The position numbers were made by a program, and so were the translations under genes. Shown piece after piece: positions 19,076 to 48,612 of a DNA stretch of 64,000 bases (positions are counted from its first letter, which is position 1; each line of letters starts with the position of its first letter). The notes beneath the pieces were generated by a model that saw nothing but the letters and a program-made list of their open reading frames with translations, searched no databases and had not been told where the DNA came from. The stretch comes from a virus: positions 1 through 64,000 of the IMG/VR virus record IMGVR_UViG_3300037851_000831. One strand, 5' to 3'.

Positions 19076-19106
19076 GTGAAGGATTAGATCAGGAATTAAA
19101 GAAAAG

Positions 19107-19355
19107 TCAAGCGCCCACGAGATATTTTTCCGCCTCACGATGAACAATTGAGAGGAGGATTTCCGATTGGTACCGGTCGAGTTCCGTTCCCTTCATGTAA
19201 ATGAAAGCAAGATTGATTGCTTTCAATCCGCCCTCGATCTGTGCGGGAGTGGGATTCTTTTTGATCGTGGCGATGAATTCCGCCGCCAACTGCTTGAATC
19301 CCCGCCAATCGTGTGTGAACGCTTCTTCCACGAGAAAGGTTTGTTCGGCTGTCAT
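19107..19355 (-). CDS. Hypothetical protein
   Basis: Promoter-linked ATG; stop overlaps next -35. Confidence 0.7.
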   Translation of the reverse strand: MTAEQTFLVEEAFTHDWRGFKQLAAEFIATIKKNPTPAQIEGGLKAINLAFIYMKGTELDRYQSEILLSIVHREAEKYLVGA

Positions 19356-27418: not shown

Positions 27419-28129
27419 TTATGCAGAAAGATTGCGCTCCCACGTGTCAGAGATTTCGCCGTCAACATGGCATTTGAACGACTGATGTGCAATCTTGTTG
27501 ATCACCCGGTCGTAACGCTTGATCGTGGCACCGTTGTAGATTTGCCCGAGGATTTCGTTGAAGAGCACCACCCACTCACACGGAAGGGCGTCAAGATAAC
27601 CGCCTGAGAGTTGATGATCGGTCGCCCACTGGTTGCACGGGGAGAGAGTCGAGAATTTGATATGCCCAACCCCGCGATGCTTTTCGATGAAGGCATCCAG
27701 TTTCTCCTTTGTTTCAAGTTGGCGCGTATGAATCAGCGTATGGAGCGTCAGGTCTGAATTAAAATTCGCCTGAAGGGGAAGACTCGGCTGATGATAAAAA
27801 GAAATGTTGAAGCAATCCACGATGCCATCCAGAGCCTTCACAACGTCAGGCATCGTGTAGTTCGTGGTCATGATGACCCGGAAGCCATACGACTTGACCA
27901 ACTGTGCAATCTCCACCACATTCGGATGAAGGGTCGGCTCGCCACCGATCAACAGCACATCCTTGATGCCGTGCTTCACTCCATGCTCACACGCCGCGAT
28001 GACATGTTCGCGGGAGATATATTCCAACCTCCCGCGATATCTGTCGATGCAAAAAGGGCACTTCTTATTGCACTCATGAGTCAAGACGAGACTCATGTAA
28101 TCCGCCGTCGTCTGTTTGATGTCGAACAT
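27419..28129 (-). CDS. Radical SAM protein
   Basis: CNKKCPFC (CxxxCxxC), GGEPTLHP, TTN. Confidence 0.92.
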   Translation of the reverse strand: MFDIKQTTADYMSLVLTHECNKKCPFCIDRYRGRLEYISREHVIAACEHGVKHGIKDVLLIGGEPTLHPNVVEIAQLVKSYGFRVIMTTNYTMPDVVKALDGIVDCFNISFYHQPSLPLQANFNSDLTLHTLIHTRQLETKEKLDAFIEKHRGVGHIKFSTLSPCNQWATDHQLSGGYLDALPCEWVVLFNEILGQIYNGATIKRYDRVINKIAHQSFKCHVDGEISDTWERNLSA

Positions 28130-29438: not shown

Positions 29439-30020
29439 GTGAAAGTTGGAATATACGGATTTAGAAATAAAGAAAAACCAGAGAAGTGGTATGTTGGTCA
29501 GAGTGTCAACATAGAGAACCGATGGAATGAGTATCGGCTACTTCGTTGTAAAAGTCAACCCAAGTGGTATAACGCTTTGGTAAAGCATGGATACGAAGGA
29601 TTTGATGCGTTCATCCTTGAGGAATGTGAAGCGGAACGTTTATCGGAGCGTGAAGAGTTTTGGGTCAAGGAAAAGAACAGCGTTGAGAACGGATATAACT
29701 GCAAATCGGGCGGATACAAAGGAGGAAAGCATTCGGAAGAAACAAAGCAGAAGTTGAGATTGGCAAAGTTGGGAAAGCCCAATAGCCCCGAGTCAAATGC
29801 CAAGCGCCGTCTCTATCACGCTTCACCAGAAACAAAGGCTAAAATCAGTGCTTCGTTGATTGGAAATCAGTATCATGCTGGTGTGGCACATACCGAAGAA
29901 ACCAAATCAAAAATATCCGCTTGGGGAAAGAACCGCTGCAAATCGCCCGAACATAGGGCGAAAATTGCAGCGGCACATCTTAAACGCAACCGGGAGCGAA
30001 GAGAAAAGCAACTTCTCTAA
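29439..30020 (+). mobile_element. Free-standing GIY-YIG homing endonuclease with NUMOD3-type repeats
   Basis: GIY...YVGQS, R, E, GYN; HSEETK/HTEETK repeats; AT-richer and opposite strand to neighbours. Confidence 0.92.
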
Positions 30021-32125: not shown

Positions 32126-32171
32126 GCGACCACTATGGAGAGTTCTTAAAAGAAAGTCAAGCCCCCGAACG

Positions 32172-32201
32172 AAAAAAAGGGCGGAATTTTTCATTCCGCC
32201 C
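32172..32201 (-). terminator. Intrinsic terminator closing the radical SAM + peptide operon
   Basis: GGGCGGAAT/ATTCCGCCC stem with U-run on minus strand. Confidence 0.8.
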
Positions 32202-32223
32202 CTCGAAGGAAATATCGTCTTCC

Positions 32224-32358
32224 TTAGACGGTCTCGGCACCACCAAGGATGGCAAGTTGCCCACAGGCGGCACCGGCTTCAACCTCGGCTTTGGTAGCCA
32301 CGGCGATGGCGAAATCGTATCCAGCGGATTCGAGTTGGTTCTTGATGTCTTCGTTCAT
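32224..32358 (-). CDS. 44 aa peptide equivalent to the RlmN/Cfr C-terminal methyl-carrier segment (not in ORF track)
   Basis: MNEDIKNQLESAGYDFAIAVATKAEVEAGAACGQLAILGGAETV; AACGQL motif; starts 22 nt after radical SAM stop, in a different frame. Confidence 0.85.
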   Translation of the reverse strand: MNEDIKNQLESAGYDFAIAVATKAEVEAGAACGQLAILGGAETV

Positions 32359-32380
32359 AATGTGTCTTTCGTTGTTTTTC

Positions 32381-33166
32381 TCAGACGAGATTGATTGCCT
32401 GAATCACACCCTTACCAAGAGCGTTCTTGTCGGAAACGTCGTTGGGGTTGATGGGACTCAACTTGATGAAGAACTTGGCAGGGTCGAAGTTTTCCCGAAG
32501 TTTCTCGATGTTGAAATCCTTCGGATCGACGAGGGTAAGGTTGACGGTCGTCTTGAGATTGCTCTCCGTGCGAATCTGACCGAGTTCGGGAATGGTGATC
32601 TTCCGATTGTAAGGGATGAGCCAGTTCCGATGAGACTCGTCAAGCGAGTGCAGCGACACCTGAAGGGTAACGTTCCCCTTGACGAAGGAGTAATCGGCAT
32701 CCTGAATTCCGATGGTCGAAATGTAGTGATGCGTGTTCGGGTAGATTTCGTCAATCATCTTGATCGCCTTCTTGACGTTCTCGATGTTGAGGAAAGGCTC
32801 GCCCATGCGGGTGTAGTTGATCTTGAATTCCTTCGACTTGCGAGGATCGAAGCCCGGATTCTTGGCAACCACGAACATCACTTGCGCGACGATTTCCTCA
32901 GCGGTCATGTTTCTCCACTTGCGGAGTTTCGCCGTCGCACAGAACTTGCAGCGCACGGGGCACCCACTCATGACCGACACACCGACCATCCAACGCTCGT
33001 TGCGGTCGCCGAGTTCGTAGGAGTCGAGGCAGTTCTGCTTGCGACCAATGGCATCCTTCGTGTAGAAGGGAAGGAACGTGTCGGTCGTCTCGATGGGATA
33101 GCCGTCTTCGGTGTGGAGAAGATAGACACTCCCGTTGGCGAACGTCTTGTGAAGTTTCTCAATCAT
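32381..33166 (-). CDS. RlmN/Cfr-like radical SAM enzyme lacking the C-terminal segment
   Basis: IET, SGCPVRCKFCAT, MGEP, ISTIG, VSLH, KLSPINP; ends before AACGQL. Confidence 0.9.
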   Translation of the reverse strand: MIEKLHKTFANGSVYLLHTEDGYPIETTDTFLPFYTKDAIGRKQNCLDSYELGDRNERWMVGVSVMSGCPVRCKFCATAKLRKWRNMTAEEIVAQVMFVVAKNPGFDPRKSKEFKINYTRMGEPFLNIENVKKAIKMIDEIYPNTHHYISTIGIQDADYSFVKGNVTLQVSLHSLDESHRNWLIPYNRKITIPELGQIRTESNLKTTVNLTLVDPKDFNIEKLRENFDPAKFFIKLSPINPNDVSDKNALGKGVIQAINLV

Positions 33167-33223
33167 GGGATGGATTGAATCAGGAAATTAAAAGAAAGTC
33201 AAGCCTTTCCGATGACTTTTTTC

Positions 33224-34100: not shown

Positions 34101-34144
34101 GGCGAGAATTAGATCAGGAGTTAGAAAAAAGTCAAGCCCTTGTT

Positions 34145-38483: not shown

Positions 38484-38777
38484 TCAGTGGATTTTTCTTA
38501 GAAGGTCGAGACCCCGGTCAATCTCTGCACGCTGCTTCTCCAGTTCCTTGATCTTTCGATCCACCCAGCGAATTTCAAATTCCGCAATGGAGTAAACGTA
38601 CTTGAGAGGCAAGCCATCAGACAACCATATGCCGCCGATCTGCTGATCGCCGTTAAGATCGAAAAAACCGGTAAACTGAAACGCTTCCCAAATGATGCGT
38701 TTCGCATTTATGTATCGGCGACCCATGTAGTACTCGCCGATACGCAGTGTGTCGCGGTCTATTTCTTTGAAGGTCAT
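38484..38777 (-). CDS. Hypothetical protein
   Basis: ATGA overlap. Confidence 0.65.
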   Translation of the reverse strand: MTFKEIDRDTLRIGEYYMGRRYINAKRIIWEAFQFTGFFDLNGDQQIGGIWLSDGLPLKYVYSIAEFEIRWVDRKIKELEKQRAEIDRGLDLLRKIH

Positions 38778-39877
38778 TTTAGAATCTGGAAGACGAGTTT
38801 CTTGGTGTCATCCTCCGCGAGCGGCTTGCCGTCGAGAAGTTTGAACGCCATGCCCGAGCGGTTGGTGTTGCCCCACGCCTGAATGATCGCCAACGCCGCA
38901 TCCTTGCGCGGCTTGCCCTTCAACGGCTCCACGAAGGAACGCATTGACGAAAGAATCTTCTCAACCTCCTTGATGGAGTCGCAAATCTTGGAGATATGCG
39001 GAACCGCCATCGTCGCAATCTCGAAGTCGAAGGTATCCGTCAGGAAGTTGAAGAAATCCATGTACGAGAGGTAGCCACCCCGCTGCTTTGACTCACCGAG
39101 GTAAACGTCAAGAACTTTCTCGAACGAAGAAATCTCCGACTTCGCACGGTGGAGATAAAGATACTCCGCGCCCTTCACCTTGCGAACGTGCTGGTCGTGG
39201 TCGAAATAAACGCACAGACCCTCCTTACCCGCGAACGCCTCAACCGACGCCTTCATCTCTTCGATGGAGTTGTAGTTATAACGCTGCGGGCGACGGAGAC
39301 CAAACTCCGCTGCAATCTTGTCGAGTTCACGCTGCGACGTATAAGAATAGTCGTCGTGGTTGATGATGTTCGTGAGAACGATATCAACATCCGGACCGTA
39401 GTCGATAACGATACGGTTGGTCGGAGACAACCACTCGAAGACGAGCGTCGCCTTGCCCGCAAAACGCTGCTGGAGACGAAAGAGTGCGTACGAATACTTC
39501 TTCTCGATCAGGTCAATCTCCTGACCGTTCGCCTGCTCACGCGCATTGGTCGTGCCACGGGTACGCCAAATCCAAAAATCCAAGAGCCACGACAAAAGAA
39601 GGGTTGAACCGTCGAGTTTCTCCATCAGAGAAGAACCGTTCAGGTTGGTCGGGATCGGATCAATGTCAGGCTGCTCTTCCCAATTGAAGAACTTCTTGTA
39701 GGAAAGGGAAACCGGCTCACCATCCTTCGTCCAGACGGATGAGCGGAAGATCAGGTTGTGCTTGTTCCACTTCGCGCCGATGTGGATCGGCTGAACCAAA
39801 TAGCACTCAACACCCGCAATCGTATGCGGATGAATCATAAATGACTCACGGTCAATCGTGTCGAGGTTGATTTTCAT
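38774..39877 (-). CDS. RNA ligase, T4 Rnl1-like
   Basis: KFFN, EKLDGS (motif I), FEW, NRIV, EGLCV, KVK. Confidence 0.9.
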   Translation of the reverse strand: MKINLDTIDRESFMIHPHTIAGVECYLVQPIHIGAKWNKHNLIFRSSVWTKDGEPVSLSYKKFFNWEEQPDIDPIPTNLNGSSLMEKLDGSTLLLSWLLDFWIWRTRGTTNAREQANGQEIDLIEKKYSYALFRLQQRFAGKATLVFEWLSPTNRIVIDYGPDVDIVLTNIINHDDYSYTSQRELDKIAAEFGLRRPQRYNYNSIEEMKASVEAFAGKEGLCVYFDHDQHVRKVKGAEYLYLHRAKSEISSFEKVLDVYLGESKQRGGYLSYMDFFNFLTDTFDFEIATMAVPHISKICDSIKEVEKILSSMRSFVEPLKGKPRKDAALAIIQAWGNTNRSGMAFKLLDGKPLAEDDTKKLVFQILK

Positions 39878-39916
39878 GTGGAAGGAGTGTGGGGATTTTT
39901 TTGAACTTGTCAAGCC

Positions 39917-41378: not shown

Positions 41379-41409
41379 GACGACGATTAGATCAGGATTC
41401 TAAAAAAAG

Positions 41410-41748
41410 TCAAGATGCGTCAACCGATTTTGTTGCGAGAGTTCCAACTTTCTTTCCATCGGAGAGGAACACGTAATGGTCGTTGTGGAGTTCAACCGTC
41501 CAATTCTTTTTCCACGACGCTGCTTCTCCTAGTTGCTTCTCATGTGGAACCGCACCCGGATCAACGGCTGGCGGGCGACCGCGACGCTTTGCGGCGACCA
41601 TCGTCGGCGCATGGGCATCGCGCACGATGGAAGAAGCCTTGGCGATCTGCGCGTCAGGATCAAGTTCCTTTGGCTTGTTCTTCGAGCCCGGAGGGCGACC
41701 CTTCCGCTTGGGCTTTACTTCCTCTTCAAGTAGTTCATCAAGTTGCAC
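41410..41748 (-). CDS. AT-hook-like DNA-binding protein (start uncertain)
   Basis: KRKGRPPGSKNK and KRRGRPP motifs. Confidence 0.6.
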   Translation of the reverse strand: MQLDELLEEEVKPKRKGRPPGSKNKPKELDPDAQIAKASSIVRDAHAPTMVAAKRRGRPPAVDPGAVPHEKQLGEAASWKKNWTVELHNDHYVFLSDGKKVGTLATKSVDAS

Positions 41749-47214: not shown

Positions 47215-48291
47215 TTAGAACGACAACTCGTTCTTGAAGAACCAAGTGCGAGCGATATTTGAGATTTCGCCCTTGACCTTGGAGAACTCGATACCGGAGG
47301 CAGCAGCGGTGTCTGATTCCTCCTTCTCAACGTCACCCACGATCCACTTGATGAACTCACCGAGGGAACGCTTGTCGGTTGGGAGACCGCGCTGGCGAAG
47401 GATATCGATACCCTGACGGCAACGATTCTCAGTCACCACATTGGCGGCGAACTCCTTCATCGAAGCGACCTTCTCCACATCAACGGCGGCGAGAGTCTTG
47501 ACCTTCGAAGCAGAGTGCTTCTCACCCTTGACCTTGAAGCGGAACTTCGGGTCTTCCCAACCGGGAGTGATGCAGCGCCAGACGATGCCTTCACCGACAC
47601 CGGAGACGCCGAACGACCAAGCGACCGGGCAAAGTTCCTCAACCTTGATAGTCAGGTCGGAGAGTTGATTCTGCGACTTCTGTGGAAACTCGAAGTCGAT
47701 ATCAATCTCAGCGGTAGCGAAATCATAAATGTTGAAAATACCCGACGACTTGTTGTGGATACGCTTGACGACTTCCTTTGACTGCCACACGCCGTCAATA
47801 CGAATGTCGAAGATGACAAACATCTTGGGAAGTTCAGCAATGGCGACACCCTTCTGAATGTTGCCACCACACCACTCACCGTAGATGATGGTCTCGACAC
47901 CCTGCGGCATCTTGGGCGAGCCATCCGACCACTGCGAGTCGAAGAGAGGCTCCCAAATTTCACGACGACCGGCGTTGATCAGGTCAAGTTCGGGATTGCT
48001 CATGAAGCGAACAAAACCGGCATTGTCGTTGAGAATGTCAATGATCTTCTCGCGAGACTGAAACCAATGACCACTCTGACCATCGCCGTTGATGGAGTAA
48101 TCGCGAAGGAGACCGATGGCGGCGTTGGTGCCGTGGAGTTTCACGGTGCCTTCGAACTTCAGAGTCGGAAGGGGATTGGTGTTGTAGATCGGCTCGTCGT
48201 TTGCATCGCGCCCGGCGTAGCGAGCGGTGGAAGTGACGTGATGAACAGCATTGCGGAACTGCTCAATCGAAGGATAGGATACGTGTTTCAT
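47215..48291 (-). CDS. RNA ligase, Rnl2-like
   Basis: VKLHGTN, QSR, YGEWCG, GEGIVW, FKVKGEKH. Confidence 0.9.
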   Translation of the reverse strand: MKHVSYPSIEQFRNAVHHVTSTARYAGRDANDEPIYNTNPLPTLKFEGTVKLHGTNAAIGLLRDYSINGDGQSGHWFQSREKIIDILNDNAGFVRFMSNPELDLINAGRREIWEPLFDSQWSDGSPKMPQGVETIIYGEWCGGNIQKGVAIAELPKMFVIFDIRIDGVWQSKEVVKRIHNKSSGIFNIYDFATAEIDIDFEFPQKSQNQLSDLTIKVEELCPVAWSFGVSGVGEGIVWRCITPGWEDPKFRFKVKGEKHSASKVKTLAAVDVEKVASMKEFAANVVTENRCRQGIDILRQRGLPTDKRSLGEFIKWIVGDVEKEESDTAAASGIEFSKVKGEISNIARTWFFKNELSF

Positions 48292-48538: not shown

Positions 48539-48612
48539 TGGAGCGGGATGGGAGGATTGAACTCCCCTCTCGAACTTGGAAGGCTCGGGCACAGCCACTA
48601 TACCAATCCCGC
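48539..48612 (-). tRNA. tRNA-Gly(TCC)
   Basis: GCGGGAT acceptor, CGAGC-CTTCCAA-GTTCG anticodon arm, TTCAATC T loop, encoded CCA. Confidence 0.9.

What the first reader, a model, noticed from the sequence alone, without database searches (positions are those of the whole stretch)
32172..33205. Split RlmN/Cfr-like enzyme with a free methyl-carrier peptide and no resolving cysteine: a possible peptide-to-RNA crosslinking system
Seen: a self-contained unit of promoter (33199), 261 aa radical SAM ORF, a 44 aa ORF missing from the ORF track, and a terminator. The large ORF has RlmN landmarks (IET, CxxxCxxC, MGEP, SLH, KLSPINP) but stops before the C-terminal segment. That segment is supplied by the small ORF (…EAGAACGQL), which has its own ATG 22 nt downstream in another frame. 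Where E. coli RlmN reads TLCVSSQVGC (Cys118), this protein reads MVGVSVMSGC, so the Cys is Gly. Established: in RlmN/Cfr the AACGQL cysteine (C355) is SAM-methylated and forms a methylene crosslink to the target adenosine. C118 resolves this crosslink, and C118 mutants stay covalently bound to RNA. Inference: a separate carrier peptide plus no resolving Cys would let the enzyme turn over while leaving the 44-mer attached to an RNA, a nucleotide or another substrate. Simpler alternatives are a two-chain methyltransferase, or a RiPP-like precursor/modifier pair.
Basis: partly seen in the sequence, partly recalled or inferred. Interest (0 to 1): 0.92.

Follow-up and report, generated by a model that had tools for sequence, protein, structure and literature searches.

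The report
Two-piece phage RlmN-like radical SAM enzyme
This freshwater phage makes a relative of the RNA-methylating enzyme RlmN as two proteins, a 261-residue body lacking one catalytic cysteine and a 44-residue acidic peptide carrying the other; many unrelated phages keep this layout, I found no paper on it, and its target is unknown.

Summary
Window 32381-33166(-) encodes a 261-aa RlmN/Cfr-like radical SAM core with Gly at the C118 position. Window 32224-32358(-) encodes a 44-aa peptide that matches RlmN's last strand plus its Cys355 loop (GAACGQL). A repeated promoter motif and a terminator frame the pair.

The split is real and old:
- It recurs in about 200 phage or phage-like loci, including cultured crAss-like, FelixO1-like, Vibrio and Moorella phages.
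- The spacers fall in all three frame offsets, and the peptide gene lies downstream, upstream or 1.2 kb away.
- The peptide is under strong purifying selection.
- A complex model docks it where RlmN's own C-terminus sits (0.82 vs best control 0.01).

The crosslinking reading is only partly supported. The peptide module also occurs naturally fused to the core (either end), to a second radical SAM enzyme and to a small methyltransferase, and once as a selected tandem pair. That fits a reusable cysteine arm better than a consumed tag. The HhH2 RNA-binding domain is absent. In relatives, though not in this window, the cassette sits in NAD+ salvage operons, which points to a nucleotide rather than rRNA.

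The target and the release step remain unknown. This scan has found the same system before on other DNA.

The parts
33174..33203 (-). Promoter-like element: cTTGACT, a 17-nt spacer, then TTCAAT. The ATG follows 7 nt after the -10-like box, so the transcript is probably leaderless.
   Evidence: The motif occurs 20 times in the window against 0.76 expected. In 15 of the 20 copies an ATG lies 5-7 nt after the -10-like box. This is a consensus match only and has not been shown to function.
32381..33166 (-). The 261-aa RlmN/Cfr-like radical SAM core. It has the three-strand beta extension and the partial TIM barrel with C69/C73/C76. It lacks the HhH2 N-terminal domain, and Gly62 sits at the C118 position.
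   Evidence: Family and sequence hits. The AF2 model has pLDDT 93. The best Foldseek matches are RlmN 6fz6/4pl1/3rfa/5hr6 and Cfr 9p0p.
32359..32380 (-). The 22-nt spacer between the enzyme's stop and the peptide's ATG. It shifts the frame and has no clear Shine-Dalgarno sequence.
   Evidence: In homologues the spacer is 9-37 nt, in all three frame offsets.
32224..32358 (-). The 44-aa acidic peptide (net charge about -5). It is made of a helix end, a beta7-like strand (YDFAIAV) and a Cys loop (GAAC32GQL), and is homologous to RlmN's C-terminal strand and mCys355 loop.
   Evidence: Alignment A1 has G29-L35 invariant. The 32-codon core has pN 0.13 against pS 0.80. The complex model scores 0.82 against a best control of 0.01, with strand 14-17 paired to enzyme 232-237.
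32166..32204 (-). Intrinsic-terminator-like hairpin (12 bp, 6 of them G-C) followed by a T-run. It closes the two-gene unit.
32146..32161 (-). Second exact copy of the promoter motif. It starts the next gene (a 132-aa ORF, phrog_21015) and marks the downstream edge of the cassette.

Best explanation
This is a self-contained phage cassette for a two-piece, class A (RlmN/Cfr-type) radical SAM enzyme.

Shown or modelled:
- The 261-aa core keeps the cluster site, the SAM site and the beta extension.
- It has lost the HhH2 RNA-binding domain and the C118 base.
- The 44-aa acidic peptide is RlmN's beta7 strand plus its Cys loop, made as a separate protein.
- In the model the peptide docks by strand addition next to enzyme strand 232-237, and the peptide as a whole (residues 11-38) touches the cluster and SAM motifs of the enzyme (residues 75-78 and 119-121).

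Inferred chemistry, by analogy with RlmN:
- Cys32 is S-methylated by one SAM.
- A 5'-deoxyadenosyl radical from a second SAM turns the methyl group into a thiomethylene radical.
- That radical adds to an sp2 carbon of the substrate.

Inferred from comparative genomics:
- The peptide behaves as an exchangeable, reusable cysteine arm, like a carrier, rather than as a fixed subunit or a consumed tag.
- Where a second small radical SAM enzyme and a class I methyltransferase are present, they share this arm.
- The most likely substrate class is a free adenine or pyridine nucleotide, perhaps NAD-related, rather than rRNA or tRNA.

How the methylene adduct is released without C118 is unknown.
For: Fold and family:
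- RlmN/Cfr are the best hits by sequence and by structure.
- A docked complex is supported: 0.82 against a best control of 0.01. That mark was reached by 58 of 80 solved complexes and 2 of 110 mismatched pairs. The runs agree in at least 92% of contacts, and the partner pLDDT is at least 68. This pass may simply reflect likeness to single-chain RlmN.

The two-gene design is real:
- 79 of 80 viral loci and 44 of 54 genome-collection loci have the separate peptide ORF.
- Spacers are 9-37 nt in all frame offsets. The peptide lies upstream in L100, L164 and L192, or 1.2-1.3 kb downstream.
- pN is 0.13 against pS 0.80.
- One homologue carries an intein inside the cluster motif.

Carrier-like behaviour:
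- The module is naturally fused to the C-terminus of a class I methyltransferase (many clusters), to the C-terminus of a second radical SAM enzyme (P0284, P0291, P0312), and to either end of the RlmN-like core (P0358, P0124, P0146).
- Vibrio phage D479 has two tandem modules that differ by 15 synonymous and 2 nonsynonymous codons.
- The peptide is acidic (pI about 4.3) and the enzyme is basic (median pI 8.3).

Not RNA:
- Only model positions 102-244 of TIGR00048 match, and the fold has no helical N-domain. In Cfr and RlmN that domain binds the RNA (bioRxiv 10.64898/2026.02.27.707579).

Nucleotide link:
- NadV and/or NatV lie within 4 kb in 7 of 46 enzyme clusters at 80% identity. These include L002, the closest viral relative at 74% identity, where the four genes abut or overlap as one operon, and L094, where the whole module sits between NatV and NadV.
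- By comparison, about 1.1% of phage genomes carry NARP2 (bioRxiv 10.1101/2024.02.11.579819).
- More distant RlmN-like proteins that lack the N-domain are fused to MutT-like Nudix, dGTPase and isochorismatase-type hydrolases.
Against: - No biochemical data exist, and the substrate is not identified.
- This window's 96.8-kb record is about 47% complete and has no NadV, no NatV and no homologue of the accessory radical SAM/methyltransferase pair. The NAD link therefore rests on relatives only and could reflect co-location among early auxiliary genes.
- Fusions of the module to the core are rare (three clusters found). Some of the 'fusions' in metagenome gene calls may be read-through artefacts.
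- The large modelled interface (peptide residues 11-38) fits a stable subunit as well as an exchangeable carrier.
Confidence: 0.5

Rival explanations
1. Consumed tag. With no resolving base, the thiomethylene adduct is never broken, so the end product is the 44-mer joined by a methylene bridge to an adenine or similar ring in RNA, DNA or a nucleotide. The core turns over by binding a fresh peptide.
For: Gly is at the C118 position in 120 of 120 close homologues. 15 of 120 enzymes have no cysteine beyond the cluster ligands, and 86% of peptide modules have no cysteine after the motif Cys. C118 and C105 variants of RlmN and Cfr stay crosslinked to RNA (PMC9692996; bioRxiv 10.64898/2026.02.27.707579). 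A separately translated peptide, and two selected tandem modules in Vibrio phage D479, would suit stoichiometric use.
Against: Natural fusions of the module to the core itself and to two other enzymes would make those enzymes single-use. 22 representative clusters keep a fused Cys loop without C118, so another way of release probably exists in this superfamily. The RNA-binding domain is absent and the peptide is acidic.
Confidence: 0.22
2. Ordinary two-chain RNA methyltransferase. The pair makes m2A or m8A in host or phage rRNA or tRNA as RlmN and Cfr do, with some other group acting as the base.
For: The closest family and fold are RlmN/Cfr. The phage also carries two RNA ligases and a tRNA gene, so RNA repair matters to it.
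Against: There is no HhH2 domain, and the score is 86 bits against the family cut-off of 290. The C118 feature is not met. No tRNA or rRNA genes are linked to the cassette across lineages, whereas NAD salvage and nucleotide genes are.
Confidence: 0.13
3. RiPP-like pair. The peptide is itself the final product, modified at Cys32 by the core and, where present, by the second radical SAM enzyme and the methyltransferase, and then acts on its own.
For: It is a small peptide gene next to one to three modifying enzymes. There are two tandem modules in one phage and peptide-enzyme fusions as in some RiPP systems.
Against: The whole peptide is conserved, not just a leader, and it is homologous to the enzyme family's own C-terminus. 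No RRE or SPASM domain was found. No protease or exporter recurs nearby. The model buries most of the peptide in the enzyme.
Confidence: 0.08
4. Broken gene or assembly artefact.
For: None beyond the split itself.
Against: The same split occurs in about 200 loci from many studies and in cultured phages, under purifying selection.
Confidence: 0.01

Closest known systems
RlmN (23S rRNA A2503 / tRNA A37 C2-methyl synthase; TIGR00048; PDB 3RF9/3RFA, 4PL1, 5HR6/5HR7, 6FZ6)
   Same: Radical SAM barrel with CxxxCxxC, the GEP and SLH motifs, and the three-strand beta extension. The beta7 strand and the AACGQL methyl-carrier cysteine loop are present, here on the peptide. RlmN is the best hit by both sequence and structure.
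   Different: The protein is split into two genes. There is no HhH2 RNA-binding domain. Gly replaces C118. A roughly 25-residue insert (TDTFLPFYTKDA...) touches the peptide in the model. The Cys segment is acidic rather than basic. The score is far below the family cut-off. The system is phage-borne.
Cfr (23S rRNA A2503 C8-methyltransferase; PDB 9P0P)
   Same: The same class A mechanism and fold.
   Different: The same differences as for RlmN. Nothing here suggests a role in antibiotic resistance.
Small acidic carrier proteins (ACP; LysW amino-group carrier), as an analogy from general knowledge and not by homology
   Same: A small acidic polypeptide that presents one reactive group to several enzymes. 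It is found free, fused to different partner enzymes, and in tandem copies.
   Different: There is no sequence or fold relation. Here the arm is a piece of the enzyme's own fold and docks by strand addition, and covalent loading has not been shown.
Phage NARP2 NAD+ reconstitution operon (Nampt/NadV plus NMNAT-Nudix/NatV; bioRxiv 10.1101/2024.02.11.579819)
   Same: In several lineages the cassette lies inside or next to this operon.
   Different: Neither the NARP2 preprint nor the NARP3 paper mentions a radical SAM enzyme. This window's record has no NARP2 genes.

Membership tests
RlmN/Cfr class A radical SAM methyl synthases | CxxxCxxC cluster motif and SAM-binding motifs in a partial TIM barrel | tested here: met
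   C69/C73/C76, MGEP and SLH are present. Pfam Radical_SAM hit at E 4.6e-9. AF2 model pLDDT 93, with RlmN and Cfr as top Foldseek hits.
RlmN/Cfr class A radical SAM methyl synthases | Methyl-carrier cysteine (C355/C338) on a C-terminal loop of the same chain | tested here: not met
   The loop (GAACGQL) is present, but on a separate 44-aa gene product. The model docks it at the equivalent place.
RlmN/Cfr class A radical SAM methyl synthases | Second cysteine (C118/C105) that starts release of the crosslink | tested here: not met
   Gly62 aligns with residue 118. Gly is found in 120 of 120 close homologues, and no other cysteine is conserved.
RlmN/Cfr class A radical SAM methyl synthases | N-terminal HhH2 RNA-binding domain | tested here: not met
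   The TIGR00048 match covers model positions 102-244 only. The model begins directly with the beta extension.
RlmN/Cfr class A radical SAM methyl synthases | Score above the curated family cut-off | tested here: not met
   86.1 bits against 290 for TIGR00048, and 51.6 against 530 for CfrAB.
RlmN/Cfr class A radical SAM methyl synthases | Forms m2A or m8A in rRNA or tRNA | not testable with these tools
   This needs an enzyme assay or RNA mass spectrometry.
RiPP precursor plus radical SAM maturase | Peptide-recognition (RRE) or SPASM/twitch domain in the enzyme | tested here: not met
   Only Radical_SAM and a sub-threshold Fer4_12 hit in Pfam. The peptide-maturase models score far below their cut-offs.
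RiPP precursor plus radical SAM maturase | Conserved leader with a more variable core | tested here: not met
   The most invariant part is the Cys loop G29-L35, and the whole peptide is constrained.
Carrier-type shared arm (functional analogy) | The same small module is found free, fused to different pathway enzymes, and in tandem copies | tested here: met
Carrier-type shared arm (functional analogy) | Covalent loading and transfer between enzymes | not testable with these tools
   This needs mass spectrometry of the peptide.
NARP2-linked accessory module | Adjacent to NadV or NatV | tested here: not met
   Absent from this window and its 96.8-kb record. Present in relatives: 7 of 46 clusters at 80% identity.

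The most novel reading that the evidence does not exclude
The pair is an enzyme system that joins a gene-encoded peptide to an adenine or pyridine ring through a one-carbon (methylene) bridge. The result would be a peptide-nucleotide or peptide-nucleic-acid conjugate as a deliberate product, for example to capture or disable a host nucleotide during infection. This would be a kind of bioconjugation not known in nature.
Probability: 0.2. Interest if true: 0.95.

Novelty: new variant of a known kind. Interest (0 to 1): 0.8.

Why it matters
RlmN and Cfr are the only characterised class A radical SAM methylases, and their mechanism is defined by two cysteines on one chain. This is a widespread natural family (more than 2000 proteins at E <= 1e-5) that puts one cysteine on a detachable peptide and has dropped the other. 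One of two things must follow. Either there is a second, unknown way to release the methylene adduct, or the adduct itself is the product. Both would extend radical SAM chemistry, and the system could become a tool for site-specific tagging.

The recurrent placement inside phage NAD+ salvage operons also suggests an undescribed step in the contest between phages and NAD-depleting bacterial defences. Cultured phages carry the system (Kehishuvirus 'tikkala', Pectobacterium Arno18, Yersinia P778, Vibrio D479, Moorella MTATph1), so it can be tested directly.

Tried and rejected
Contexts came from the search for related loci and annotated phage records instead.
- blastn of the locus against cultured phage records found nothing. 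tblastn did find matches.
- A viral-contig scan with the single protein P0150 found no relative. The alignment A3 did.
- Programmed frameshift or read-through: rejected, because spacer lengths, frame offsets and gene order vary among homologues.
- A second peptide cysteine as the resolving residue: rejected as a general feature, being present in only 21 of 146 modules. Window Cys46 lies in a segment that touches the peptide in the model, but that position is Cys in only 12 of 119 homologues.
- Orthology between the window's second radical SAM gene (27419-28129) and the accessory radical SAM of other loci: not established. There is only generic motif similarity, and it does not join that cluster.
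- No NAPRTase, Band_7 or NatV homologue was found in the window's own record.
- No RNA holder was listed for the stretch, so expression could not be examined.
- Net charge of the equivalent segment in fused relatives overlaps that of the free peptides, so charge alone does not discriminate.
- Literature searches found no description of a split or phage RlmN-like system.
- A residue-level search for a replacement base was not possible, because model coordinates are not exposed.

Full report
**What is there.**
- On the minus strand, a 261-aa ORF (32381-33166) is followed after 22 nt, in another frame, by a 44-aa ORF with its own ATG (32224-32358).
- The unit is framed by a promoter-like element (cTTGACT, 17 nt, TTCAAT) at 33174-33203 and a 12-bp hairpin plus T-run at 32204-32176.
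- The motif CTTGACTTTCTTTTAA occurs 20 times in the window against 0.76 expected by chance. A second exact copy at 32146-32161 starts the next gene.
- The record is a 96.8-kb IMG/VR virus contig, about 47% complete. It was probably assembled from a freshwater sample.
- It encodes a tail sheath, PhoH, two RNA ligases and a tRNA-Gly, so it is a large myovirus.

**Identity of the two products.**
- The large ORF matches Pfam Radical_SAM. Its best NCBIfam hit is RlmN (TIGR00048, E 2e-24, 86 bits against a cut-off of 290), but only over model positions 102-244 of 355.
- Against solved structures the best sequence hits are RlmN 6fz6, 4pl1, 5hr6 and 3rf9, then Cfr 9p0p. The alignment to the E. coli C118A variant places Gly62 on residue 118.
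- An AlphaFold2 model (pLDDT 93) starts with three beta strands and runs straight into the barrel. Its best Foldseek matches are RlmN and Cfr.
- The helical HhH2 domain is absent. In Cfr and RlmN that domain holds the RNA (bioRxiv 10.64898/2026.02.27.707579).
- From my knowledge of the E. coli RlmN sequence, the peptide corresponds to RlmN's last helix end, strand beta7 and the loop with the methyl-carrier cysteine (AACGQL).

**The split is real and old.**
- The protein search found 2045 relatives at E <= 1e-5. All 120 best end at the same ...NL[VI] tail, at about 261 aa. The six longer ones I read (277-328 aa) differ only by N-terminal extensions.
- In 79 of 80 viral-contig loci a separate peptide ORF with its own ATG and GAACGQL is present. 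Spacers are 9-37 nt in all three frame offsets, or about 1.2-1.3 kb where other genes intervene.
- The arrangement holds in cultured phages of unrelated groups:
  - the crAss-like Kehishuvirus 'tikkala';
  - FelixO1-like Pectobacterium Arno18 and Yersinia P778;
  - Moorella MTATph1;
  - Vibrio D479.
- It also holds in 44 of 54 loci from the genome collection. Most of these are metagenome bins and a few are isolates such as Segatella copri and Bacteroides congonensis.
- The peptide gene lies upstream of the enzyme in L100, L164 and L192.
- Among 44 distinct DNA versions of the 32-codon core, the median pN is 0.13 against a pS of 0.80.
- One homologue carries a LAGLIDADG intein inside the cluster motif.
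- Assembly error, recent decay and frameshifting are therefore excluded.

**The missing cysteine.**
- Gly occupies the C118 position in 120 of 120 close homologues and in every genome-collection locus where the enzyme ORF was called.
- 15 of 120 enzymes contain only the three cluster cysteines.
- 125 of 146 distinct peptide modules have no cysteine after the motif Cys.
- In RlmN and Cfr, C118 or C105 removes the ring proton and so triggers release of the protein-RNA crosslink. Variants at that position stay crosslinked (PMC9692996). This family therefore cannot use the textbook release step.

**Does the peptide bind?**
- A complex model of core, peptide, cluster and SAM scored 0.82 against a best control of 0.01.
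- That mark was reached by 58 of 80 solved complexes and 2 of 110 mismatched pairs.
- The runs agree in at least 92% of contacts, and the partner pLDDT is at least 68.
- Peptide strand 14-17 pairs with enzyme strand 232-237. The peptide as a whole also touches enzyme residues 75-78 and 119-121 (the cluster and SAM motifs), the beta extension, the family-specific insert 39-47 and the conserved C-terminal tail.
- This pass may come from likeness to single-chain RlmN. It shows that the two pieces can rebuild the RlmN architecture, not that they bind.

**New comparative evidence on how the peptide is used.**
- A profile search for longer proteins holding the module found it fused to several partners:
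  - the C-terminus of a small class I methyltransferase, in many clusters such as P0281 and P0324;
  - the C-terminus of a second radical SAM enzyme (P0284, P0291, P0312);
  - the C-terminus of the RlmN-like core itself (P0358, still with Gly);
  - the N-terminus of the core (P0124), and in P0146 to core plus a second radical SAM domain in one 695-aa chain.
- Vibrio phage D479 has two tandem modules in one ORF. They differ at 20 of 96 nt, with 15 synonymous and 2 nonsynonymous codon changes, so both copies are kept by selection.
- The peptide is acidic (pI about 4.3) and the enzyme is mildly basic (median pI 8.3).
- A module that is found free, tethered to three different enzymes and duplicated in tandem looks like a shared, reusable arm. 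It does not look like a fixed subunit or a throw-away tag.

**Partners and context.**
- Across about 210 loci, clustered by enzyme identity, only a few neighbour families recur in separate lineages:
  - a small MoaA/viperin-like radical SAM enzyme and a 148-aa class I methyltransferase (12 and 9 of 46 clusters at 80% identity), often placed between enzyme and peptide;
  - the NAD+ salvage genes NadV (Nampt) and NatV (NMNAT-Nudix) (7 of 46 clusters).
- In L002, the closest viral-contig relative (74% identity), NatV, NadV, enzyme and peptide abut or overlap as one operon, with a PARP-like gene further downstream.
- In L094 the whole four-gene module sits between NatV and NadV.
- About 1.1% of phage genomes carry this NARP2 pathway (bioRxiv 10.1101/2024.02.11.579819).
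- More distant RlmN-like proteins without the N-domain are fused to MutT-like Nudix, dGTPase and isochorismatase-type hydrolases.
- These links point to a free nucleotide as substrate.
- The window itself has none of these partners. Only the enzyme, the peptide and a GIY-YIG endonuclease-like ORF are shared with L002. Here the cassette stands alone among small early-type genes of unknown function.

- The anatomy it described is correct, and its proposed test (co-occurrence of the split, the ATG and the Gly) comes out positive.
- Three results weaken the inference that the split exists so the enzyme can turn over while the peptide stays attached to RNA:
  - the single-chain and enzyme-tethered forms;
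  - the 22 representative clusters that keep a fused Cys loop with a non-Cys, non-Gly residue at the C118 position;
  - the loss of the RNA-binding domain.
- A stable peptide-substrate adduct remains possible, at about one chance in five, and would be the most novel outcome.

**Novelty.**
- I found no paper on a split or phage-borne RlmN-like system.
- Earlier notes of this scan describe the same design in other genomes. I re-tested their main points here.
- On my own evidence this is a new variant of the RlmN/Cfr kind, with an unknown target and an unknown release step.

Noticed in passing
window, 20 sites, e.g. 19096-19111(-), 34121-34136(-), 41399-41414(-), 57840-57855(+): The repeated promoter-like element cTTGACT-N17-cTAaTc is followed by an ATG 5-7 nt after the -10-like box in 15 of 20 copies. 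Many early genes of this phage, including the enzyme gene, therefore look leaderless.
   Followed up: partly
window 27419-28129(-): A second small radical SAM gene (236 aa, CNKKCPFC), with only generic MoaA/NrdG/viperin-like hits. Orthology to the accessory radical SAM that accompanies the cassette in other phages is not shown.
   Followed up: partly
window 29439-30020(+): A free-standing GIY-YIG 'group I intron endonuclease' ORF on the opposite strand, among minus-strand early genes (TIGR01453, E 8e-26). A related gene heads the L002 operon.
   Followed up: no
window 38774-39913(-), 47215-48291(-), 48539-48612(-): Two RNA ligase genes (phrog_562, gp63/Rnl-like; phrog_548, RNA ligase) and a tRNA-Gly(TCC). 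Together they suggest a tRNA-repair capacity.
   Followed up: no
L087 5782-6063 (Vibrio phage D479, OZ195776.1): The peptide ORF holds two tandem Cys-loop modules, 81% identical in DNA and almost identical in protein (15 synonymous against 2 nonsynonymous codon changes).
   Followed up: yes
P0122 (601 aa, metagenome protein): A close homologue of the enzyme carries a LAGLIDADG intein inserted in the CxxxCxxC cluster motif.
   Followed up: no
L002 4856-6241: A phage-encoded PARP-like protein (WGR + PARP_reg + PARP catalytic domain) lies downstream of the NatV-NadV-enzyme-peptide operon.
   Followed up: no
L082 2440-3657 (Kehishuvirus 'tikkala'); P0350: An SPFH/band-7 gene lies two genes upstream of the enzyme in the crAss-like phage. 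One metagenome protein joins a Band_7 domain to a partial peptide module. Two distant phage hits are annotated 'prohibitin family protein'.
   Followed up: no
P0176, P0186, P0200, P0203 and similar (about 270 aa): Another RlmN-like clade has Gly at the C118 position. It keeps the helix-strand C-terminus but has no Cys loop in the chain. Whether a separate Cys peptide exists for it was not examined.
   Followed up: no
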